Notes: generated by a model not told the origin, from the letters alone. Positions 4,316 through 29,664 are shown, numbered from the stretch's first letter. The stretch: 64,000 bases of DNA from Candidatus Hydrogenedentota bacterium (GCA_019695095.1 JAIBAQ010000010.1:7845-71844), one strand, 5' to 3'. Numbers and translations: made by a program.

Positions 4316-5143
4316 GTGCCTTACGCAGAGATCATCTACGAAGTCAGCGACAACATCGCCACGGTAACACTGAATCGCCCTGACAAACTCAATGCTTGGA
4401 CCTTCAAGATGGAGTCCGAGTACAAGCAAGCGTTGGCAGAGGCTGAACGGGACGATGCGGTGCGTGTGATTGTCGTCACGGGAGCAGGCCGAGGTTTCTG
4501 CGCAGGCGCGGACATGGGATTGCTGAGCAGCGTGATGAGCGGAGAAGTCGACACATCCGAATTGGAAGCTGGCACAGTGTCGTTCGGCGGCGGACAGACC
4601 GTTCCGGAGGACTTTAGGAAGCAGTACTCATTTCCGCCGTCAGTAAGCAAGCCCATCATCGCGGCGGTAAACGGTCCCGCTGTAGGAATCGGGCTTGTCC
4701 ACGCCCTCTATTGCGACATGCGATTCGCAAGCGATGTGGCGCGATTCGGAACGGCGTTCGCACAACGCGGGCTCATCGCTGAACACGGAATCTCATGGTT
4801 GCTACCGCGAATCGTCGGCATCGACAATGCACTTGATCTCCTGTATTCCGCGCGCATGATCGATGCGGAAGAGGCCTTGCGTATGCGCTTGGTAACCCGA
4901 GTGGTCCCTCACGATGACCTCCTCCCCACGGTGCGGGCCTATGCCACGCAACTTGCGACATTGTCGTCGCCGCGATCCATGCGAGTCATCAAGCGACAGG
5001 TTTGGGGGGCCATGCTTACGAATCTCGGCGATGCTGTCGATAGTGCGGTGAACGAGATGATGGAGAGTTTCGGGTCCGAGGATTTCCGCGAGGGGGTCCT
5101 CGCGTTTATGGAAAAACGCCCACCACAGTTTCCGGGAAAGTAG
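4316..5143 (+). CDS. Enoyl-CoA hydratase/isomerase (crotonase superfamily)
   Basis: VTLNRPDKLNA, FCAGADM, KPIIAAVNGPAVG, C-terminal EDFREGVLAFMEKRPPQF; GTG start with a GGAGG RBS. Confidence 0.93.
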   Translation: MPYAEIIYEVSDNIATVTLNRPDKLNAWTFKMESEYKQALAEAERDDAVRVIVVTGAGRGFCAGADMGLLSSVMSGEVDTSELEAGTVSFGGGQTVPEDFRKQYSFPPSVSKPIIAAVNGPAVGIGLVHALYCDMRFASDVARFGTAFAQRGLIAEHGISWLLPRIVGIDNALDLLYSARMIDAEEALRMRLVTRVVPHDDLLPTVRAYATQLATLSSPRSMRVIKRQVWGAMLTNLGDAVDSAVNEMMESFGSEDFREGVLAFMEKRPPQFPGK

Positions 5144-5156
5144 AAACAAACCTACA

Positions 5157-5924
5157 CTACTTCGGAGCCATTCTAATCGCGCCATCGAGACGAATAGTCT
5201 CGCCGTTCAGCATGGGGTTCTCGATGATGTGTTTTGCGAGGGCTGCGAACTCTGACGGCTTTCCTAGTCTGCTCGGGAAGGGAATGGACTCGGCGAGCGA
5301 TTGCCGCGCCGGTTCAGGCAGAAGAGCAAGCAGCGGGGTATCGAACAGGCCGGGCGCGATCGTCACCACGCGAATACCAGATTTAGAGAGATCGCGCGCG
5401 ACGGGAAGTGTCATGCCGACGATGCCCGCCTTTGAAGCGGAGTATGCTGTTTGACCAATTTGGCCGTCGAACGCCGCAACTGACGCCGTATTGATGATGA
5501 CACCGCGTTCGCCGCCGTCATTCGGCTCGTTCTTCATCATTGCGTGGGCTGCAAATCGGATTACGTTGAATGTCCCGACTAGATTGATATCGATCACGGT
5601 CTTGAAGACTTCGAGGCCGTGCGGGCCCCCTTTGCCGACAATCTTCATGGCCATGCCAACGCCCGCGCAACTAATCGCACCGTGAATTCCGCCAAACGTT
5701 TCTACCGCGGCTTCGACCGCTGCCTTAACCTGATCTTCTTTGGTTACGTCGGTGGAGACAAATCGGGCCCGATTTCCCAGTTCTCCTGCTACGCGAATTC
5801 CGTTCTCTTCGTTCATATCGGCTATTACGACCTGACCACCAGATTCAACCAGTAATCGCGCCGTCGCTTCCCCGAGGCCCGAGCCACCGCCCGAGATTAC
5901 AAATGCCTTTCCGTTCACGTCCAT
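5157..5924 (-). CDS. SDR, 3-hydroxyacyl-CoA dehydrogenase type-2 (HSD17B10-like)
   Basis: [46 protein letters not shown]; start set at ATG 5924 after a GGGAGG RBS. Confidence 0.93.
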
Positions 5925-6184
5925 GACACTGCCTCCCTGACTTAGAGAACACCAGCCGCCCAATTAAGGTGAGGAGTTGAGTATAAGTCACACGAGGGTC
6001 ACTCTACCACACAGCTTCGAATGGCGTTGGCCCTCTATTCTTGCCAGACCCGGGCGAGTACGGTACAGTTTGCTGTCATCAACCGGATTCGGTTAATTGG
6101 TAATCTTGCAGTTAGCCAGCGCCGCGCTCATCGAGCGCTGCGCTACCGAGCGCATCCGAATTGTACGTCTGGGGGGAGAACACT

Positions 6185-21874: not shown

Positions 21875-22370
21875 GTCAAGAGTATACCGAAATGCCCTGC
21901 CTCTTGCAAGAGGCTGTTTCTTCCCCAACGAACGTTCGTCAACATGGGACCGGACGTTTCCCCCGGTCGACCCGAGTGCAAAAACACTCCATCTGCCGAA
22001 AAACTTCCTAGAAGGATTGGGGCACGTTATTGATGCACGTATTGCTGCTGGTGAAGTCCTGAATTGCACGGCCGCGCGCGTCTCGGCGTAGAATATCCGG
22101 CCTTGTATTCCTAACTTGATGGGCACGCAGCAGAGAATTTGACTCTGTCGCCGACAATAATTAACCTCTTTGCGGAATGTGCAAGGGCTACTGGGGTTGT
22201 TAGTAGGTGAGGCGGGAGGCGATCCCTATCCGCTCACAGACGACACACGTGCTTTTTATGCTATTCACTTTTCGTTTTTGGGGACGATTTCAAATCCCGT
22301 GTCCCCCTGGCAGAGTAGGCAGAACGCCACGAGTTTATCGTGTGCTGACTATATTTGGGAGAACGTGCTC

Positions 22371-23375
22371 GTGGCAATTGAACGCGTTGTGCTCGCGAAT
22401 CCGAGAGGATTCTGCGCGGGAGTTGTACGGGCTGTCGACATAGTTGAGCAAGTACTGGACCTCGTGGACTCGCCCATTTATGTCTTTCACGAGATTGTTC
22501 ATAACGTGCATGTTGTCGATAGATTGCGCGCGCGCGGGGCGGTGTTTGTCGAAAGTATCGCTGATATTCCCGAGGGGGCTGTCTGCGTTTTCAGCGCTCA
22601 CGGCATCTCCCCCGAGGTTCGCAATGAAGCGAATGAGAAGGGGCTACGCGTAATCGACGCGACCTGTCCGCTCGTAACGAAAGTGCATCTGGAAGTTATT
22701 CGTTACGCAAAGGCAGGCTATTCCATCGTTCTGATTGGGCATGCGGGGCACGAAGAAGTTGAAGGTACGATGGGCGAAGCGCCCATGCATCTAGTAAGTA
22801 CCGTTTCAGATGTGGAATCACTCGCCGTGGAGAATGCGGAGAAGCTTATTTACCTTACGCAGACGACGCTGAGTCTGGATGACACAGCTCGAATTGTGGA
22901 GGCACTGAGAGCGAAGTTCCCCTCGATACAGTCTCCGCCGAAGGACGATATATGTTACGCCACGCAGAACCGCCAGAATTCCGTGAAGGAGCTGGCGGCC
23001 AAAGTGGATGTTGTATTGGTTACCGGTTCGCAGAACAGTTCGAATTCGCAGCGGCTTTGTGAAGTGGCCGCGAGCGTTGGCGTGTCGGCGTACCTTATTA
23101 ACGATGAAACTGAAATCCGGAGCGAGTGGTTTGAAGGCAAGCGCGTCGTTGGCGTGACGGCAGGCGCGTCGGCCCCGGAAGACTGTGTGCGCCGGATACT
23201 TGACCATCTCAAGACTTTGGGAGCAGCGGTAGTTGAAGAGCTGCGAACGGCCACCGAGAAGGTTCATTTCTCGATGCCTCGCGAATTTTTTGCACTCGTG
23301 GAGTCGTTGCGACACACGGCTCCCGGTACAACGCAGCAGAGCATGGTGCCGAGTCCCAGCGCAATGAATCAGTAA
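22371..23375 (+). CDS. ispH: 4-hydroxy-3-methylbut-2-enyl diphosphate reductase
   Basis: LANPRGFCAGV, DATCPLVTKVH, ICYATQNRQ (three Fe-S Cys), SSNSQRL, GVTAGASAPE; GTG start after GGGAG. Confidence 0.97.
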   Translation: MAIERVVLANPRGFCAGVVRAVDIVEQVLDLVDSPIYVFHEIVHNVHVVDRLRARGAVFVESIADIPEGAVCVFSAHGISPEVRNEANEKGLRVIDATCPLVTKVHLEVIRYAKAGYSIVLIGHAGHEEVEGTMGEAPMHLVSTVSDVESLAVENAEKLIYLTQTTLSLDDTARIVEALRAKFPSIQSPPKDDICYATQNRQNSVKELAAKVDVVLVTGSQNSSNSQRLCEVAASVGVSAYLINDETEIRSEWFEGKRVVGVTAGASAPEDCVRRILDHLKTLGAAVVEELRTATEKVHFSMPREFFALVESLRHTAPGTTQQSMVPSPSAMNQ

Positions 23376-23451
23376 CAAGCTGCGCCGGCACCGTTACGGC
23401 GGAAGAGGTAACGGCGGCGCGATAATTGCCGGGTAGGAAAGGTAGGAGAAA

Positions 23452-25386
23452 TTGGCCGTAACAGCAGCGAATCAAATGGGCTCCGCGTTGCTCCCATTGG
23501 GAGACACAATTAACGCGGGCGTGAAAACGGCTATTGAGGCTACGCAGGCTTTTCTGTTGAGCCAACAGCATGCCGACGGTCACTGGTGCGCCGAACTTGA
23601 AGGCGACACGATCCTCGAATCCGAGTACATCCTGACGATGCACTACATCGGGCGCACCCAAGAAGACCGGGTGCGCAAGGCTGCCAATTATCTACGCAGG
23701 CAGGCGCTGCGTGAGGGAGGCTGGAGCATCTATCCGGACGGGCCTGCTGATGTCAGCGCTTCGGCCAAGGCGTATTTCACGTTAAAACTCCTCGGGGACA
23801 GCGAGAACGCGCCTCACATGGTGAAGGCGCGGGAGGTCATTCGGAAGCTTGGCGGACTCGATGCCACGAATAGTTTCACGCGGCTCTATCTGGCCATCTT
23901 CGGTCAATATCCGTGGGAGAAGTGCCCCGCCGTGCCTCCCGAGATTCTGCTTCTTCCATCCGTTGCACCGATCAATCTCTACGAGATGTCGTCATGGAGC
24001 CGTGGAATAGTCGTACCGCTGTCGGTGATCTGGGCCTACAAACCGTACTGTCCAGTTCCCGAGCACGCCAACATTCCCGAACTCATGGTCGAGAACCCGA
24101 ATGAGCCGACTCGGCAGACGGGCATGTGGCCCGCATTCTTCATGGCCATTGACTCAACGCTCAAGGCCGTGGAAAGCTCGCGGATAACGCCTATGCGCGC
24201 CAAGGCCTTGCGCGCCTGTGAAAAGTGGATGATAGAACACTTCGAGCAGAGCGACGGCATTGGGGCGATTTTCCCGCCCATAATCAACAGCATTATTGCG
24301 CTGCGCTGCCTGGGATATCCGAATGAGCATCCGCTGACGCAGTCGCAGATTCGCGAATTGGAGAAACTGGAAATCGAGGAAGGCGAAACCCTTCGCGTGC
24401 AACCTTGTTTTTCTCCGGTGTGGGACACGGCCTACGTGCTTCATGCGTTCGTGGAATCCGGAATGGATCGAAGCCACCCGGAGTTGTTGAAGGCCTCCGA
24501 TTGGCTACTTGCAAAAGAGGTTCGGAAACCGGGGGACTGGAAACTTAAGAACCCCAATGCGAAACCGGGCGGCTGGTACTTCGAGTATGCCAACGAGTTC
24601 TATCCCGATTTGGACGACACTTTCGAAGTGCTTACGACGCTTCGCCAAATCCACTATCCCGATTCGGCAAATGAACAGCGGAAGCAAGCGGCACTGAAGC
24701 GTGGCCTGGACTGGGCGCTCTCGATGCAGAACGTGGACGGCGGCTGGGGCGCATTCGATCGGGGCTGCGACAAGGAATACCTGACGCAAATTCCGTTTGC
24801 GGATCACAATGCGATGATCGATCCCAGCACAAGCGATATCACAGCGCGCGGAATCGAGGCGTTGGTTACCATGGGGTACTCCAGAAATCACCCTGTGATG
24901 CAGCGGGCATTGGAGTTTGTCCGAAACCAGCAGGAAGCGGATGGCACATGGTTTGGACGCTGGGGCGTCAACTACATTTACGGTACGTGGCTCGCTTTGT
25001 GCGGCTTGCGCGCGGCTGGCGAAGACATGACGAGCGCGAACATTCAACGCGCCGCAAAGTGGCTTCGGACGGTTCAGAACAGCGATGGCGGTTGGGGCGA
25101 GTCGCCTCGAAGCTACGACGACCCCTCGCAAAAAGGCAAGGGCGTCAGCACCGCCTCACAGACAGCCTGGGCGCTCATGGGACTCATGGCGACGGGCGAC
25201 TACACGTCGCCGAGCGTGCTGAAAGGAATTACGTATCTTCTGGAGACTCAGAATGCCGATGGAACATGGCACGAGGATCAGTGGACCGGGACTGGATTTC
25301 CGCGGGTGTTTTACCTGCACTACCACTATTATGCAATCTACTTCCCGTTGATTGCGCTAGGTAAGTTCCGAAAATTTCATTCCTAG
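23452..25386 (+). CDS. shc: Squalene-hopene cyclase
   Basis: Catalytic DXDD (YPDLDDT), several QW repeats (QNVDGGWG, QEADGTW, QNSDGGWGE), SPVWDT, GRWGVNYIYGT, GTGFPRVFYLHY. Confidence 0.97.
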   Translation: MAVTAANQMGSALLPLGDTINAGVKTAIEATQAFLLSQQHADGHWCAELEGDTILESEYILTMHYIGRTQEDRVRKAANYLRRQALREGGWSIYPDGPADVSASAKAYFTLKLLGDSENAPHMVKAREVIRKLGGLDATNSFTRLYLAIFGQYPWEKCPAVPPEILLLPSVAPINLYEMSSWSRGIVVPLSVIWAYKPYCPVPEHANIPELMVENPNEPTRQTGMWPAFFMAIDSTLKAVESSRITPMRAKALRACEKWMIEHFEQSDGIGAIFPPIINSIIALRCLGYPNEHPLTQSQIRELEKLEIEEGETLRVQPCFSPVWDTAYVLHAFVESGMDRSHPELLKASDWLLAKEVRKPGDWKLKNPNAKPGGWYFEYANEFYPDLDDTFEVLTTLRQIHYPDSANEQRKQAALKRGLDWALSMQNVDGGWGAFDRGCDKEYLTQIPFADHNAMIDPSTSDITARGIEALVTMGYSRNHPVMQRALEFVRNQQEADGTWFGRWGVNYIYGTWLALCGLRAAGEDMTSANIQRAAKWLRTVQNSDGGWGESPRSYDDPSQKGKGVSTASQTAWALMGLMATGDYTSPSVLKGITYLLETQNADGTWHEDQWTGTGFPRVFYLHYHYYAIYFPLIALGKFRKFHS

Positions 25387-25537
25387 TCAGCAATTTGCAG
25401 GACTTTAAGGTTATGCCATGAGGATTTCTCGCGAACACGCTCTGTCTTTGGAGAGCAGCTTTGCTTTTCGCCACAAGTCTCGTAAGCACACTGGTTACGA
25501 GATAGGCTCAAGTGTGTTCGTGAGAAATCCGGGCTAG
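25383..25537 (+). mobile_element. MITE-like repeat, copy A (155 bp, 5' hairpin partly deleted)
   Basis: CTAG at both ends, the left one containing the shc stop; 17-bp outer stem 25422-25438/25514-25530; inner stem TCTCGTAA/TTACGAGA. Confidence 0.8.
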
Positions 25538-25595
25538 AGCGAGCGTTGAGAATTGAACGAGTAGTACTTCAAAGAGAACGGACTTTAAGAGAATC

Positions 25596-26597
25596 ATGCG
25601 ATTTCCACTACATATCACGATGGACTCCATCAAGCACCAGGTTCGAAACGCGCTCAAAGGCAATAAGCGCTATCCCATGGTGATGATGCTGGAACCACTG
25701 TACACGTGCAATTTGGCGTGTATCGGTTGTTCGACCGAACGGCATACTGGCAAGCTCAAGGACCGCGTCGCACTCGACTCATGTTTTCAGGCGCTGGATG
25801 ATTGCGGCGCGCCTATCGTGTCGATCTGCGGGGGTGAACCGACTCTCTATCCAGAGTTGAAAGAGCTGATTGAGGGTATCGTGGCGCGCAAACGCCACAT
25901 CTACTTGTGCACAAACGCAATCTGCCTCGCCGATAAGGTCTACGGGAAGATTGCGCCCCACAAGCGCCTTACCGTGAATATTCATCTTGACGGCATGCGC
26001 GAAACCCACGACATGGTGTGTGCGCGGAAGGGCGTATTCGACAACGCGATCGAGATGCTGAAGGAAGGTAAACGCCTCGGCTATCACATGTACACCAACA
26101 CGACCGTCTACCGCGAAACGGAGATGGCTGAGGTGGAAGAGTTATGCCGGGTATGTACCGAGGCGGGCGTGGACGGCATGTTGATAGCGCCGGGCTATCA
26201 TTACGAGACAGTCGAGAAGGATATCTTCCTCACACGCCGCGAAATCAACGAGAAGTTCGCCAAAGTGATGGAGCTTTCCAAGCGGTACCGGCTAAGTTCC
26301 ACGCCCATGTACCTGGAATTCGCGGCAGGCATGCGCAGCTACAACTGTTCGCCGTGGAGTACGGTTACGTTCACCCCGAAAGGCTGGAAAGGCCCCTGCT
26401 ACCTCTTGGGCAAGCAGTTCTTCGAGACGTGGCAGGAATTCTGGACTACAATGGATTGGGCCTATTGGGAATCGCGAGAAGACCGCGCCTGTCAGAACTG
26501 CATGATGCACAGCGGGTTCGAGGCCTCGGCGGTCTTCGAACTCAAGAACAGCCCGAAGGACATGCTGAGGATGGCAGCCTGGAATCTCCTCGGCTAA
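25596..26597 (+). CDS. hpnH: Adenosyl-hopene transferase, radical SAM
   Basis: MLEPLYTCNLACIGC (CxxxCxxC), VSICGGEP, HLDG, C-terminal GWKGPCYLL...CQNCMMHSGFE; follows shc. Confidence 0.93.
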   Translation: MRFPLHITMDSIKHQVRNALKGNKRYPMVMMLEPLYTCNLACIGCSTERHTGKLKDRVALDSCFQALDDCGAPIVSICGGEPTLYPELKELIEGIVARKRHIYLCTNAICLADKVYGKIAPHKRLTVNIHLDGMRETHDMVCARKGVFDNAIEMLKEGKRLGYHMYTNTTVYRETEMAEVEELCRVCTEAGVDGMLIAPGYHYETVEKDIFLTRREINEKFAKVMELSKRYRLSSTPMYLEFAAGMRSYNCSPWSTVTFTPKGWKGPCYLLGKQFFETWQEFWTTMDWAYWESREDRACQNCMMHSGFEASAVFELKNSPKDMLRMAAWNLLG

Positions 26598-26615
26598 CCG
26601 AGAGTAGATTTAACG

Positions 26616-27353
26616 TTGAGCAGTAACAAGGCGACAAGCGCCAAGACTTGGTGCATCGCCGCGGCGATGCCGGGCGAGATCGCAGCAGTACAGCGCCTTG
26701 CATTGCCCAACATTTCGTACCTGATTACGGGTGTGGGCACACGCAATGCCGAGCGCGCAGCGTTGCAGGCCATTTCTCAATCGTCGTTCGACGCGCTTCT
26801 CCACATCGGTTTTGCAGGGGCGTTATCCCCCGCGCTAGCCGTAGGTGACATTCTGTTCGCGAATGCCGTCGCAGGCCCGCACGAGGTCCGCATCGACTTA
26901 GGGTCGCCTCGAGTCGCGGAGAAGACACATATTGGCGGTGTGAACGTGCGAGTGGGTACGTTTGTGACTCGTGATCGCGTCCTCACGACGAGTCAGGATA
27001 AGCGTGAAGTCGCCGCGACATTGCGACAAGGTTCCTTGGGGTGCGCCGACATGGAGTCTGCGCCCGTCGCGCGCATATGTGCGGAACACGGTATTTCCTA
27101 CATGGGCCTTCGGTGTATCACCGATACGCTCGACGAGGACTTGCCGCTCGACCTCAATGCCTGCCGGGATCAAAGCGGCAATATCGCCACGGGGCGGGTG
27201 ATTTGGGCGCTTGCGCGCAAACCGACTGCGTTACCGGGACTCATGGAACTCCGTCGGCGAGCGCACAGTTGCGCAGCCATCCTGGCGCGCGTCATCTCAG
27301 AGTTGCTTAAGCCATTGCCGAGCGGAGAAACAGACCTGGGCAATCGAGCATAA
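26616..27353 (+). CDS. hpnG: Hopanoid-associated nucleoside phosphorylase
   Basis: PNP/MTA-phosphorylase fold motifs TGVG, IGFAGAL, ADMESA, RCITD; directly after hpnH. Confidence 0.8.
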   Translation: MSSNKATSAKTWCIAAAMPGEIAAVQRLALPNISYLITGVGTRNAERAALQAISQSSFDALLHIGFAGALSPALAVGDILFANAVAGPHEVRIDLGSPRVAEKTHIGGVNVRVGTFVTRDRVLTTSQDKREVAATLRQGSLGCADMESAPVARICAEHGISYMGLRCITDTLDEDLPLDLNACRDQSGNIATGRVIWALARKPTALPGLMELRRRAHSCAAILARVISELLKPLPSGETDLGNRA

Positions 27354-27408
27354 TGCGGCGCGTTCGGTGGGGCCGGTATTACTTGACCCGAGACGAAAGG
27401 AACGGAGA

Positions 27409-28209
27409 ATGAGACGCCTCGAATCGTGGCAAGGTAAGGTTACAGTCATCACCGGCGCGTCCAGCGGAATCGGTCGACTTCTCGCCATCCACGCCGCCAA
27501 AGCGGGGGCGCTTGTCGTATTGGTGGCGCGCAATGAGGAGCGGCTGACTGCGGTTTCCAGCGAAATCCAAGCGACCGGAGGAAAGGCCGACGTGGTCATT
27601 TGCGACGTATCCGATCGCGATGCGGTCTTTCGGGCAGCGCAAGCCATTCTCGAACGACACGGCCGCGTTGATGTGCTGCTTAATAACGCCGGATATGGCC
27701 GCCATCTACGCTTTGCCGAATGGGACCTTAACGACATAGAGCGCATGGTCCAAGTGAATCTTCTGGGCGCCATCTTCTGGACCAAAGCGTTGCTTCCTCA
27801 CATGCTTGATCGCGGTTCTGGGTGGCTGGTGTTTGTTGCCTCGGTCGCAGGCAAGCTTGGCGTGCCCGACGAAAGTGTCTATTGCGCGACCAAATTCGCG
27901 ATGATCGGGATGGCCGAGTCGATATCGATCGAGGTTGAGGATGCAGGAATACACGTGCTGACGGTGTGTCCCGGCGCAATCGATACCGAGTTCTTCTCTG
28001 AAGAAATGCTCCGCCGAATGCCTCCTGTCGCGAAGAAGAACATGATCAGACCTGAGAGGCTGGTCGCTGAAATCATGAATGCGCTCGCAAAAGGCAAACG
28101 CGAAATCACCGTGCCACGCTCTATCGCCGCGGGCTATATCGCGCGCACGCTCTTCCCTCGATTCACGCGAGCAATGGTTAAGCGGGTGGCTCTCCGGCCG
28201 GTTGAATAA
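27409..28209 (+). CDS. Classical SDR oxidoreductase, probably NADP(H)-dependent
   Basis: TGASSGIG, VARN (Arg implies NADPH), NNAG, SVAG, YCATK; AGG/GGAG RBS before ATG 27409. Confidence 0.92.
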   Translation: MRRLESWQGKVTVITGASSGIGRLLAIHAAKAGALVVLVARNEERLTAVSSEIQATGGKADVVICDVSDRDAVFRAAQAILERHGRVDVLLNNAGYGRHLRFAEWDLNDIERMVQVNLLGAIFWTKALLPHMLDRGSGWLVFVASVAGKLGVPDESVYCATKFAMIGMAESISIEVEDAGIHVLTVCPGAIDTEFFSEEMLRRMPPVAKKNMIRPERLVAEIMNALAKGKREITVPRSIAAGYIARTLFPRFTRAMVKRVALRPVE

Positions 28210-28221
28210 GCAGAATTAGTT

Positions 28222-28279
28222 GGAAAACAGGGACAGAATCGTCTCCGCTTCGCTGCGCTTGTGTCAGTCCCTGTTTTCC
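28222..28279. terminator. Inverted repeat between convergent genes (terminator or REP-like)
   Basis: Perfect 13-bp inverted repeat GGAAAACAGGGAC / GTCCCTGTTTTCC with a 32-nt spacer. Confidence 0.5.
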
Positions 28280-28338
28280 GCCGCTGCTGACTCTTCCTAG
28301 GGTCAACCAATATGTTGACTTAATTACGATTCACTACT

Positions 28339-29664
28339 CTAGCGGGCGCCTCCGCAGCACTTTTTGAATTTACGTCCGCTGCCACACGGACAAGGATCGT
28401 TTGGTCCCGCGCCTTGCTTGCCCGACATTTGCAGATCGCGCTGTGCGGCGAATCGGCGAACGTTAGCCGGAGGACGGCTCATCCGAAGTTCGTTTGCCAT
28501 GAATTGCATATAGGGCGCGATGTGCGTGAAGAAGTGCTTGTAGCCGGCGCACAGATAGTTCAGCCCAGACTCACCGTCGGGGGTCTTGATGAACCGGTGT
28601 TTTGGGCACTCGCCGTGACACACAAACCGCACGTCGCAGGAACGGCAGTATTGCGGAAGGGCGTCGGCCTTGTCGTTACCGAACTGCTTCTGTTGTTCGG
28701 AGTCAACCAACGCGCGAATACCTTGCTCCATGATGTTCCCAAGGCGGTTTTCGGGGTAGACAAAGTGATCGCAAGAGTAGAGGTCGCCGTTGTGTTCCAA
28801 TGCCATAGCCGTGCCGCACCGTTCGGCGAACACACATAGGCTTGGGTCATAGCCCACCCATGCCTCCAGGGCCACGTCGAAGATTTGCACGAACGTTTCA
28901 CCTACGTCGTTGCGGACCCATTCGTCAAAGACAGCGGACAGGAACTTGCCGTATTGCAGGGGCTCTACCGACCATCGAGAGACCGTGGCCTTGTCAGGGT
29001 AATCGGGCGATACAAGAACGAGTTGATCCTCGTCGGTAACTTCTGCGATGCGTTCCACAATCGGAATGAACTGTATGAAACCGCTGCCGACACTTTTTAA
29101 GAATCGGTAGACTTCGAGCGGATGATACGAGTTCTTGCGGTTCACACACGTGAGGGTATTGAATTCGACTCGATGCTTCTTGAGCGTGTCAATTCCGCGC
29201 AGCACTTTGTCGAATGTCCCGCGTCCACCTTTGTCGCGCCGATACGCATCGTGCAATTCCTGCGGACCATCAATGGAAATACCCACAAGGAAACCGTTCT
29301 GTGCGAGAAACTCCCCCCAGCGATCATCGAGCAAGATGCCATTGGTCTGGAAGGCATTATTGATTCGTTTACCGTTTGCATATCGTTTCTGCAACTCGAC
29401 GGCGCGCTCGAAGAAACCAACTCCCAGGATGGTCGGTTCACCACCCTGCCACGCAAACTGAATTTCGGGGACATCCTGAGCTTCAATGTACTGCTGGATA
29501 TATGATTCGAGCGTATCGTCGGACATTGCCCATCCCGAATCATTGGGATAGAGCTTCTCCTTTTCGAGATAGAAGCAGTATGTGCAATCGAGATTACAGA
29601 TCGGTCCCGTAGGCTTGGTCATCACGTGGAATGCGGATGAGACCCTTCTGGACTCTGCAGACAT
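28339..29664 (-). CDS. Anaerobic sulfatase-maturating radical SAM/SPASM enzyme with C-terminal SEC-C motif
   Basis: KPTGPICNLDCTYCFY, WQGGEPT, SPASM Cys (CVFAERCG, YSCDH, CRSC, CHGECPK), GPNDPCPCGSGRKFKKCC. Confidence 0.95.
   Translation of the reverse strand: MSAESRRVSSAFHVMTKPTGPICNLDCTYCFYLEKEKLYPNDSGWAMSDDTLESYIQQYIEAQDVPEIQFAWQGGEPTILGVGFFERAVELQKRYANGKRINNAFQTNGILLDDRWGEFLAQNGFLVGISIDGPQELHDAYRRDKGGRGTFDKVLRGIDTLKKHRVEFNTLTCVNRKNSYHPLEVYRFLKSVGSGFIQFIPIVERIAEVTDEDQLVLVSPDYPDKATVSRWSVEPLQYGKFLSAVFDEWVRNDVGETFVQIFDVALEAWVGYDPSLCVFAERCGTAMALEHNGDLYSCDHFVYPENRLGNIMEQGIRALVDSEQQKQFGNDKADALPQYCRSCDVRFVCHGECPKHRFIKTPDGESGLNYLCAGYKHFFTHIAPYMQFMANELRMSRPPANVRRFAAQRDLQMSGKQGAGPNDPCPCGSGRKFKKCCGGAR

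What the first reader, a model, noticed from the sequence alone, without database searches (positions are those of the whole stretch)
27409..28209. SDR after hpnH-hpnG: candidate for the unassigned ribosylhopane-to-bacteriohopanetetrol reductase
Seen: an NADP(H)-type SDR (VARN, YCATK) is the last co-oriented gene of ispH-shc-hpnH-hpnG, 55 nt after hpnG and followed by an inverted repeat. Known: HpnH makes adenosylhopane and HpnG removes adenine to give ribosylhopane. To my knowledge the enzyme that reduces this to bacteriohopanetetrol has not been assigned to a gene. No hpnO aminotransferase is in this cluster. Inference: this SDR is well placed to be that reductase or another side-chain oxidoreductase.
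Basis: partly seen in the sequence, partly recalled or inferred. Interest (0 to 1): 0.75.

Follow-up and report, generated by a model that had tools for sequence, protein, structure and literature searches.

The report
SDR reductase gene in hopanoid operon
An intact short-chain dehydrogenase gene ends a hopanoid-lipid operon in an uncultured wastewater bacterium, and because the same enzyme family sits in hopanoid clusters of a second phylum, where a different suspected reductase (hpnA) normally lies, it is a credible but unproven candidate for the still-unassigned enzyme that makes bacteriohopanetetrol.

Summary
Window 27409-28209 (+) encodes an intact 266-aa classical SDR with NADP(H)-type features. 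It lies 55 nt after an HpnG-like gene, last in ispH-shc-hpnH-hpnG-SDR, and a strong hairpin follows it.

- Four Candidatus Hydrogenedentales-type relatives (SDR 67-80% identical) keep hpnH-hpnG-SDR while the downstream gene changes.
- The same SDR family (55-57% identical) lies inside hopanoid clusters of Acidobacteriota (Thermoanaerobaculia, Holophagae). There are at least four gene orders, often with the SDR coupled to an adenine deaminase gene.
- The nearest HpnH relatives in metagenomes carry shc-hpnH-hpnA-hpnG. All 11 SDR-linked clusters and the 64-kb window lack hpnA. The literature has proposed HpnA for the ribosylhopane-to-BHT step, which remained unassigned in 2025-2026 papers.

Against the interpretation:
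- About 85% of family members are not near hopanoid genes.
- The two linked clades share no distinguishing residues.
- HpnA and the ug1/ug2 zinc dehydrogenases are rival candidates.
- No co-transcription or biochemical data exist.
- Whole-genome co-occurrence could not be run because the tool was shut.

I put about 0.45 on a hopanoid side-chain reductase (most likely ribosylhopane to BHT) and about 0.3 on a general lipid or aldehyde SDR. This is a good, testable candidate, not an assignment.

The parts
22170..23375 (+). ispH (LytB, HMBPP reductase), first gene of the co-oriented block. The true start is probably later than this longest ORF, because the LytB domain begins at residue 72.
   Evidence: PF02401 at 321 bits and NF002188 at 452 bits. 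The relative L001 calls a 334-aa product.
23452..25386 (+). shc, squalene-hopene cyclase
   Evidence: TIGR01507 at 729 bits, cut-off 431.
25404..25570 (.). Intergenic stretch between shc and hpnH that carries a high-copy repeated element.
Evidence: Word depth is 648 in metagenome run X1, against about 8 on both flanks.
25596..26597 (+). hpnH, radical-SAM adenosylhopane synthase, of a divergent subtype
   Evidence: TIGR03470 at 359 bits, cut-off 225; Radical_SAM plus DUF3463. One metatranscriptome contig lies on 26163-26387.
26616..27353 (+). HpnG-like nucleoside phosphorylase/nucleosidase (PNP_UDP_1), 18 nt after hpnH
   Evidence: PF01048 at 77.6 bits. TIGR03468 scores 110.7 bits, below the cut-off of 187.1. 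HpnG genes in bona fide hpnA-containing clusters score the same low way, 102-109 bits.
27409..28209 (+). The finding: a classical SDR of 266 aa with NADP(H)-type features. It is a candidate hopanoid side-chain reductase.
   Evidence: AF2 model with pLDDT 91.2. Synteny with hpnH-hpnG in L001/L012, L002, L009 and L010/L013.
28222..28279 (.). Inverted repeat (13-nt perfect arms, 32-nt spacer) between the SDR stop and the convergent radical-SAM gene. It probably marks the end of the transcription unit, but it is not a canonical intrinsic terminator.
   Evidence: There is no T-run after the stem.

Best explanation
The gene encodes a cytoplasmic, NADP(H)-dependent classical short-chain dehydrogenase/reductase. 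It is made from the same transcription unit as ispH, shc, hpnH and hpnG in a Candidatus Hydrogenedentales bacterium from activated sludge.

Its most likely job is a redox step on the C35 hopanoid side chain, directly after HpnG has removed adenine from adenosylhopane. Specifically, hydride would pass from NADPH to the C-35 aldehyde of the open-chain form of ribosylhopane, through the N117-S145-Y158-K162 tetrad, giving bacteriohopanetetrol (BHT).

In this lineage the SDR would fill the slot that the extended-SDR gene hpnA occupies in the most closely related hopanoid clusters.

Shown here: gene integrity, motifs, fold, conserved synteny, a second independent linkage in another phylum, and locus-level mutual exclusion with hpnA.
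Inferred: co-transcription, cofactor, substrate and direction of the reaction.
For: 1. The SDR is intact, with a complete cofactor motif and catalytic tetrad. R41 follows strand beta-2 and no acidic residue is there, which marks the NADP(H) type. Its GC and GC3 match its neighbours.

2. No promoter or terminator signal above chance lies in the 55-nt gap.

3. Four independent relatives keep hpnH-hpnG-SDR, with gaps of 46-100 nt. SDR identity is 67-80%; HpnG identity is only 46-56%. The gene downstream differs among them: anaerobic sulfatase-maturase-like, enoyl-CoA hydratase or PhyH.

4. Of 85 family members placed on a tree, the hpn-linked ones form two separate clades: Hydrogenedentales (5 of 5) and Thermoanaerobaculia plus Holophagae (7 of 9). 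The label needs at least 3 changes on the tree.

5. The acidobacterial clusters have at least four gene orders, and the SDR stays in the cluster through all of them:
- shc-hpnG-X-ade-SDR facing hpnB-hpnH
- shc-hpnG-ade-SDR
- hpnH-hpnB-SDR facing ade
- SDR facing hpnB-hpnH

6. In those clusters the SDR is 4-14 nt overlapped with, or 8-10 nt from, an adenine deaminase gene (TIGR01178, 566 bits). Adenine deaminase would consume the other product of the HpnG reaction.

7. Reverse survey. In 80 metagenome loci chosen by HpnH similarity alone (589 kb), no member of this SDR family occurs, and only one remote partial SDR hit was found. Twenty-one of these loci carry hpnA (TIGR03466, 482-486 bits), in most of them immediately after hpnH. 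None of the 11 SDR-linked clusters, nor the 64-kb window, has hpnA.

8. On the HpnH tree the window clade nests inside a 32-row group in which half the rows are hpnA-type. The acidobacterial SDR-type HpnH lie on a separate long branch, so there were two independent recruitments.

9. Literature. The enzyme for ribosylhopane to BHT 'has not yet been established' (PMC12583986). A 2026 review shows no enzyme for it (PMC13459092). HpnA next to hpnG was proposed for exactly this step (PMC5462960).

10. Precedent and fold. The best PDB sequence match is clavaldehyde dehydrogenase, deposited as 'clavulanic acid dehydrogenase | clavaldehyde dehydrogenase' (2jah, E 4e-38). That it is an NADPH-dependent SDR reducing an aldehyde to a primary alcohol is my own knowledge. 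The best full-length structural match is HSD17B13 (TM 0.83-0.88); that it is lipid-droplet associated and acts on lipids is also my own knowledge.
Against: - Most of the family is not within 10 kb of any hpn gene: 73 of 85 tree rows, from Binatia, Myxococcota, Halieaceae, Terriglobales and another Hydrogenedentes MAG. These members sit in other recurring contexts: GFO/IDH/MocA-SDR, TetR-SDR, zinc-ADH, and acyl-CoA dehydrogenase/enoyl-CoA hydratase. Whether these genomes carry hpn genes elsewhere could not be checked.
- The family is 51-64% identical across phyla. The two hpn-linked clades share no distinguishing residues; S171 is the only weak case. So nothing in the sequence marks a hopanoid-specific subfamily.
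- Hydrogenedentales-specific changes near the pocket (R100L, Y/F118L, A157V, D197T, A200M) are absent from the acidobacterial clade.
- Some hpnH-hpnG clusters have neither hpnA nor an SDR nearby. The step may therefore be done by an unlinked or unspecific reductase in many bacteria.
- HpnA itself is reported as not essential for BHT in Burkholderia and absent from Rhodopseudomonas (PMC5462960). 'Replaces HpnA' therefore does not by itself mean 'makes BHT'.
- Other candidates exist, notably the ug1/ug2 zinc dehydrogenases.
- There is no RNA evidence for co-transcription and no biochemical data.
Confidence: 0.45

Rival explanations
1. It is a general-purpose lipid, alcohol or aldehyde SDR with a housekeeping or catabolic role, the same as its many unlinked orthologues. 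Its position beside hpn genes in two lineages reflects convenience, or loose co-regulation with membrane-lipid genes, and not a dedicated hopanoid step.
For: - About 85% of sampled family members are unlinked to hpn genes. They sit beside GFO/IDH/MocA oxidoreductases, TetR regulators, zinc-ADHs, acyl-CoA dehydrogenases and enoyl-CoA hydratases.
- High identity across phyla, with no linked-clade signature.
- The relative L002 even has an enoyl-CoA hydratase gene next to it.
Against: - The same orthologous family recurs in hpn clusters of two phyla, despite very different HpnH types and at least five gene orders overall.
- Classical SDRs are otherwise almost absent from 589 kb around 80 hpnH loci.
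- There is locus-level exclusion with hpnA.
Confidence: 0.3
2. It acts on hopanoids but catalyses a different redox step. Three possibilities:
- Oxidation of the ribosylhopane lactol to the lactone (ribonylhopane), in the manner of glucose 1-dehydrogenase.
- An oxidation/re-reduction that epimerises a side-chain carbinol and gives a BHT stereoisomer.
- A step tied to the unknown function of the glycosyltransferase HpnB.
For: - The linkage evidence is the same as for the best explanation.
- Glucose 1-dehydrogenase-type SDRs are among the sequence and fold relatives.
- hpnB lies beside the SDR in L047, L048, L077 and L088, with only a 107-aa hpnB-like fragment in L058.
- That ribonylhopane and BHT stereoisomers exist, with unknown biosynthesis, is my own knowledge and was not checked here.
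Against: - The NADP(H)-type cofactor signature favours a reductive direction in vivo.
- The Hydrogenedentales clusters have no hpnB, so an HpnB-coupled role cannot be general.
- The only missing step needed by every BHT producer is the reduction.
Confidence: 0.15
3. It belongs to a nucleoside by-product salvage or detoxification module. A PNP-type nucleosidase, an adenine deaminase and the SDR would handle 5'-deoxyadenosine-type by-products of radical-SAM enzymes, with the SDR reducing 5-deoxyribose. It would not act on the hopanoid itself.
For: - The ade-SDR pair is tightly coupled in Thermoanaerobaculia and lies next to a PNP_UDP_1 gene and a radical-SAM gene.
- Another radical-SAM gene lies convergent to the SDR in the window.
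Against: [quoted passage not shown]
- The Hydrogenedentales clusters have no adenine deaminase.
- The best fold match is a lipid-acting SDR (the lipid role is my own knowledge).
- The PNP gene sits in the HpnG position after shc/hpnH.
Confidence: 0.06

Closest known systems
HpnA (TIGR03466, 'hopanoid-associated sugar epimerase')
   Same: It is an NAD(P)-Rossmann enzyme of the SDR superfamily, encoded next to hpnG/hpnH. The literature proposes it for the ribosylhopane-to-BHT step (PMC5462960). It occupies the cluster slot that this SDR seems to replace.
   Different: HpnA is an extended SDR of about 327 aa, related to 3-beta-HSD/SdmB. This protein is a 266-aa classical SDR. HpnA queries find nothing in the window. 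The function of HpnA is itself unproven, and it is reported dispensable in Burkholderia.
ug1/ug2 zinc-dependent MDR dehydrogenases of acidobacterial hopanoid clusters (Sinninghe Damste et al. 2017, PMC5462960)
   Same: They are oxidoreductase genes of unknown function embedded beside hpnG in hopanoid clusters. They are candidates for the same unassigned step.
   Different: They belong to a different superfamily (zinc MDR, about 340-aa pairs) and a different lineage (Terriglobia). None is present in the SDR-type clusters seen here.
NCBIfam NF004825 (PRK06181) 'SDR family oxidoreductase'
   Same: This is the best profile match, over the full length (residues 6-259 of 266).
   Different: The score of 205.8 is below the curated cut-off of 215. 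The family has no assigned function in any case.
Clavaldehyde (clavulanic acid) dehydrogenase CAD, PDB 2jah
   Same: It is the best PDB sequence match (E 4e-38; 34% identity in the structural alignment). It is a classical SDR; that it uses NADPH to reduce an aldehyde to a primary alcohol, the chemistry proposed here, is my own knowledge.
   Different: Its substrate is a small polar beta-lactam. It lacks the C-terminal helical extension (the match ends at residue 196). It has no link to hopanoids.
Human HSD17B13 / HSD17B11 (SDR16C)
   Same: This is the best full-length structural match (TM 0.83-0.88, including the C-terminal helices). That these are lipid-droplet or membrane-associated SDRs acting on steroid, retinoid or lipid substrates is my own knowledge.
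   Different: Identity is only 26-29%. These are eukaryotic proteins with an N-terminal membrane anchor (own knowledge) that is absent here.

Membership tests
Classical short-chain dehydrogenase/reductase (PF00106) | TGxxxGxG cofactor motif, NNAG, the catalytic N-S-Y-K tetrad (YxxxK), and a Rossmann fold of about 250-270 aa | tested here: met
   PF00106 at 193 bits. T15-G16-ASSG-I-G22, N92-N-A-G95, N117, S145, Y158 and K162 are present. The AF2 model is a Rossmann fold with pLDDT 91.2.
NADP(H)-preferring classical SDR (basic residue after strand beta-2) | Arg/Lys in the first two positions after beta-2, and no Asp/Glu at the end of beta-2 | tested here: met
   The sequence reads V39-A40-R41-N42, and R41 is invariant in 50 relatives. 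Cofactor use was not measured.
NCBIfam NF004825 / PRK06181 equivalog | Whole-protein score at or above the curated cut-off of 215 bits | tested here: not met
   The score is 205.8 bits.
HpnA (TIGR03466) | Match to the HpnA profile: an extended SDR of about 327 aa | tested here: not met
   TIGR03466 is not among the 25 best of 223 NCBIfam matches shown for P0001. tblastn with two bona fide HpnA proteins finds nothing in the window at E 1e-5.
Hopanoid (hpn) biosynthetic operon member | Co-oriented with, and tightly spaced to, shc/hpnH/hpnG, with the linkage conserved in relatives | tested here: met
   The gap is 55 nt with no promoter or terminator signal above chance. Synteny holds in 4 Hydrogenedentales-type relatives and in 7 acidobacterial loci.
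Hopanoid (hpn) biosynthetic operon member | Co-transcription with hpnG | tested here: inconclusive
   Only one 231-nt metatranscriptome contig was found, and it lies on hpnH. No RNA run holds the SDR.
Hopanoid (hpn) biosynthetic operon member | Genome-wide co-occurrence with shc/hpnH/hpnG | not testable with these tools
Ribosylhopane reductase (activity; no defined family) | NADPH-dependent conversion of ribosylhopane to bacteriohopanetetrol | not testable with these tools
   This needs an enzyme assay. The activity is known only from a cell-free system (Bodlenner et al. 2015, as cited in PMC12583986).

The most novel reading that the evidence does not exclude
This PRK06181-like classical SDR is a genuine ribosylhopane reductase. 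It would have displaced HpnA in situ at least twice, in Hydrogenedentota and in Thermoanaerobaculia/Holophagae. That would imply three things. First, the last unassigned step of BHT biosynthesis is carried out by non-orthologous reductases in different phyla (HpnA, this SDR, possibly ug1/ug2). Second, in Thermoanaerobaculia an adenine deaminase-SDR pair pulls the HpnG reaction forward by removing both of its products. Third, the wider, unlinked SDR family may be the 'unspecific' reductase that does this job in bacteria whose hpn clusters encode no reductase.
Probability: 0.33. Interest if true: 0.8.

Novelty: new variant of a known kind. Interest (0 to 1): 0.6.

Why it matters
Bacteriohopanepolyols are major membrane lipids, and they are the precursors of the geohopanes that geochemists use as molecular fossils.

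The pathway from squalene to BHT has one step with no gene: the reduction of ribosylhopane. Papers from 2025-2026 still list it as unassigned, or draw it as non-enzymatic.

A compact five-gene operon, ispH-shc-hpnH-hpnG-SDR, with no hpnA, hpnB or hpnO nearby, is close to a minimal 'BHT cassette'. It could be expressed as a unit. It gives a concrete protein to assay. It also suggests a testable rule: HpnA-type and SDR-type clusters are alternatives.

If the assignment is confirmed, BHT production could be predicted from genomes of uncultured phyla such as Hydrogenedentota and Thermoanaerobaculia, and the role of HpnA would become clearer. If it is not confirmed, the gene is an ordinary SDR.

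Tried and rejected
- Whole-genome and relatives search for co-occurrence of the SDR with hpn genes and hpnA: the genome search and the fetch from genomes were shut. All conclusions are therefore at locus level, within 10 kb or less.
- Co-transcription: 16 runs hold the stretch. The single RNA run gave one contig, on hpnH only. No RNA run holds the SDR.
- Promoter and terminator scan of 22000-28500: counts are at chance level. The only promoter-like match near the gap is 9 of 12 and overlaps the start codon, so it is uninformative.
- Convergent 'signature' residues shared by the two hpn-linked clades: none found beyond a weak S171. I therefore reject the idea of a sequence-defined hopanoid subfamily.
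- A link to the convergent downstream radical-SAM/SPASM gene (anaerobic sulfatase-maturase-like, 28339-29664): rejected, because relatives L002 and L009 have other genes there.
- A link to the SLT transglycosylase genes seen near Binatia homologues: the window's SLT is not homologous to those at E 1e-10, so this is coincidence.
- The primary papers Bodlenner 2015 and Liu 2014 are not held. They are cited only through PMC12583986 and PMC12324291.
- Literature searches for hopanoids in Hydrogenedentes and Binatota gave nothing useful.
- No paper in the library links hpnG with a short-chain dehydrogenase. Six papers hold both 'hopanoid' and 'adenine deaminase', but none by title concerns hpn clusters, and they were not opened.

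Full report
OBSERVATION. The ORF at 27409-28209 (+) is intact and encodes 266 aa. It is a classical SDR: PF00106 scores 193 bits, and the best NCBIfam match is PRK06181/NF004825 at 205.8 bits, just under its cut-off of 215. All defining motifs are present: TGASSGIG, NNAG, N117, S145 and Y158-CAT-K162. R41 after strand beta-2 ('VARN') gives the NADP(H)-type signature.

Upstream and co-oriented lie four genes:
- ispH, 22170-23375.
- shc, 23452-25386 (TIGR01507, 729 bits).
- hpnH, 25596-26597 (TIGR03470, 359 bits).
- An HpnG-like phosphorylase gene, 26616-27353. Its TIGR03468 score of 110.7 bits is below the cut-off. HpnG genes in bona fide hpnA-containing clusters score the same way.

The hpnG-SDR gap is 55 nt, and it holds no promoter or terminator signal above chance. 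Twelve nucleotides after the stop codon, a perfect 13-nt inverted repeat forms a hairpin of -34.8 kcal/mol with z = -4.6. A convergent radical-SAM/SPASM gene follows. GC and GC3 of the SDR match its neighbours. The window contains no hpnA, hpnB, hpnO-like aminotransferase or adenine deaminase.

WHO CARRIES IT. The nearest genomic relatives are Candidatus Hydrogenedentales MAGs. The window sequence itself is found in activated-sludge and wastewater metagenomes.

NEAR RELATIVES. Four independent contigs carry SDRs 80, 78, 73 and 67% identical to this one. All of them have hpnH-hpnG-SDR in the same order, with gaps of 46-100 nt. HpnG itself has diverged to 46-56% identity. The gene after the SDR differs among them: sulfatase-maturase-like in two, enoyl-CoA hydratase in one, PhyH in one. 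The SDR therefore travels with hpnG and not with its other neighbour.

FAMILY-WIDE SURVEY. The protein belongs to a large, well-conserved family: 2183 database proteins at E <= 1e-30, many at about 60% identity. I fetched 80 genomic loci and scanned them with the window's hopanoid proteins. Most members have no hpn gene within 10 kb. These come from Binatia, Myxococcota, Halieaceae, Terriglobales and another Hydrogenedentes MAG. They show other recurrent contexts: a GFO/IDH/MocA oxidoreductase or a TetR gene directly upstream, a zinc-ADH, or acyl-CoA dehydrogenase/enoyl-CoA hydratase genes.

A second group, however, does lie inside hopanoid clusters. On the SDR tree the linked proteins form two separate clades: Hydrogenedentales (5 of 5 rows, SH-aLRT 98) and an Acidobacteriota clade of Thermoanaerobaculia plus Holophagae (7 of 9 rows, once L077 is counted). 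The label needs at least three changes on the tree.

ACIDOBACTERIAL CLUSTERS. Their HpnH is a canonical type (TIGR03470, 538-547 bits) and is only 37% identical to the window's. The gene orders differ:
- L058 and L047: shc-hpnG-X-ade-SDR, facing hpnB-hpnH.
- L055: shc-hpnG-ade-SDR.
- L048 and L077: hpnH-hpnB-SDR, facing ade.
- L078: ade-SDR, with a REP-type transposase inserted before hpnH.
- L088: SDR facing hpnB-hpnH, with hpnG-shc further on.

The SDR stays in the cluster through all these rearrangements. An adenine deaminase gene (TIGR01178, 566 bits) also stays with it. In L055 and L078 it overlaps the SDR start by 4 and 14 nt.

HpnG releases adenine and ribosylhopane (or its 1-phosphate) from adenosylhopane. 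An adenine deaminase and a reductase next to each other would each consume one of those two products. This is a functional argument, and it is inference.

REVERSE SURVEY. I chose 80 metagenome loci purely by similarity to the window's HpnH, at 43-72% identity. In their 589 kb there is no member of this SDR family, and only one remote partial SDR hit. So an SDR beside hpnH is not a common accident.

Instead, 21 of these loci carry hpnA, which follows hpnH within about 170 nt in most of them. Its identity is confirmed by TIGR03466 at 482-486 bits, above the cut-off of 368. Many of the loci read shc-hpnH-hpnA-hpnG. None of the 11 SDR-linked clusters has hpnA, nor does the 64-kb window.

On an HpnH tree the window's clade (SH-aLRT 100) nests in a 32-row group. 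Half of that group's rows are hpnA-type, and several of the rest are contigs too short to tell. The acidobacterial SDR-type HpnH sit on a distant branch, so the SDR label needs two origins.

The simplest reading is in-situ non-orthologous displacement: hpnA was lost and a classical SDR was recruited beside hpnG, at least twice.

LITERATURE.
- A November 2025 survey states that the enzyme converting ribosylhopane into BHT 'has not yet been established', and that the functions of hpnA, hpnB and hpnL are unknown (PMC12583986).
- A 2026 review draws the step as non-enzymatic (PMC13459092).
- Sinninghe Damste et al. 2017 proposed HpnA, which is clustered with hpnG, for exactly this step. They also noted that it appears dispensable in Burkholderia and is absent from Rhodopseudomonas (PMC5462960).
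- That paper's unknown genes ug1/ug2 are further candidates. Earlier notes of this scan identify them as zinc-ADHs.
- I found no paper linking hpnG with a short-chain dehydrogenase. Six papers hold both 'hopanoid' and 'adenine deaminase', but none by title concerns hpn clusters, and I did not open them.

STRUCTURE. An AlphaFold2 model built on 50 homologues is confident, with pLDDT 91.2 and pTM 0.91. The best full-length structural matches are HSD17B13 chains (TM 0.83-0.88), including the C-terminal helices. The best sequence match in the PDB is clavaldehyde dehydrogenase. From my own knowledge, HSD17B13 is a lipid-acting SDR, and clavaldehyde dehydrogenase reduces an aldehyde to a primary alcohol with NADPH. 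Both are compatible with the proposed chemistry on a lipid-borne aldose. Neither proves it.

WHAT WEAKENS THE CASE.
- The family is mostly unlinked to hopanoid genes.
- The two linked clades share no diagnostic residues.
- The Hydrogenedentales clade has its own changes near the pocket (R100L, Y/F118L, A157V, D197T, A200M). The acidobacterial clade does not share them.
- Some hpnH-hpnG clusters carry no reductase gene at all.
- The function of HpnA is itself unproven.
- There is no RNA evidence for co-transcription.
- The whole-genome co-occurrence test could not be run, because the genome tools were shut.

MECHANISM AND ODDS.
- Best explanation (0.45): an NADPH-dependent reductase acts right after HpnG on the open-chain C-35 aldehyde of ribosylhopane and gives BHT.
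- Rival 1 (0.30): a general lipid or aldehyde SDR whose linkage carries no specific meaning.
- Rival 2 (0.15): another hopanoid redox step, such as lactone formation, epimerisation, or a step coupled to HpnB.
- Rival 3 (about 0.06): salvage of radical-SAM nucleoside by-products.

VERDICT. This is a new variant of the hopanoid gene cluster, SDR-type instead of hpnA-type, and it offers a concrete, easily testable candidate for a step that has lacked a gene for more than a decade. It remains a candidate, one of three families now in that position.

Noticed in passing
L058 8277-9992; L047 8275-9984; L055 7926-9782; L078 1535-3340; L048 5465-6481 (-): An adenine deaminase gene (TIGR01178, 566 bits) is a constant member of Thermoanaerobaculia hopanoid clusters. 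It is often translationally coupled to the SDR. It would consume the adenine released by HpnG. I found no paper in the library that links the two.
   Followed up: partly
L058 6636-8132; L047 6798-8270: A conserved protein of about 498 aa, with no Pfam or NCBIfam match, lies between hpnG and the adenine deaminase gene in two acidobacterial hopanoid clusters (69% identical between them).
   Followed up: no
window 25404-25570: The shc-hpnH intergenic stretch has a word depth of 648 in the source-like metagenome run, against about 8 on both flanks.
   Followed up: partly
window 28339-29664 (-): An anaerobic sulfatase-maturase-like radical-SAM/SPASM protein (NF010308, 536 bits) carries a C-terminal SEC-C zinc motif. 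It is convergent with the SDR. It is conserved in two relatives but replaced in two others.
   Followed up: partly
window 25596-27353: The window's HpnH and HpnG are divergent subtypes. HpnH scores 359 bits against about 540 for the acidobacterial ones. HpnG scores 110.7 bits, below the curated cut-off of 187, so automatic annotation would not name it HpnG.
   Followed up: partly
L137 437-1912 and about 8 similar metagenome loci: A wax-ester synthase/DGAT gene lies directly upstream of hpnG-hpnH in a group of HpnH relatives at about 60% identity.
   Followed up: no
L078 4206-5768 (-): A REP-associated tyrosine transposase (score 78.3, just under the cut-off of 80) and an HTH gene are inserted between the ade-SDR pair and hpnH in one Thermoanaerobaculia cluster.
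   Followed up: no
L047 12006-13300 (-): hpnH is split over two or three reading frames in this long-read MAG. This is either a frameshift or an assembly error.
   Followed up: no
window 4316-5963: A second, unrelated classical SDR (5157-5963, minus strand; 30% identical to the acidobacterial family member L058) lies convergent to an enoyl-CoA hydratase gene (4316-5143).
   Followed up: no
L005 4371-8801 and about 10 Binatia-type loci: In unlinked family members the SDR is directly preceded by a GFO/IDH/MocA oxidoreductase gene. In L005 it is also preceded by a PI-PLC-X-like gene and a radical-SAM gene. This hints at a different conserved pathway for the wider family.
   Followed up: partly
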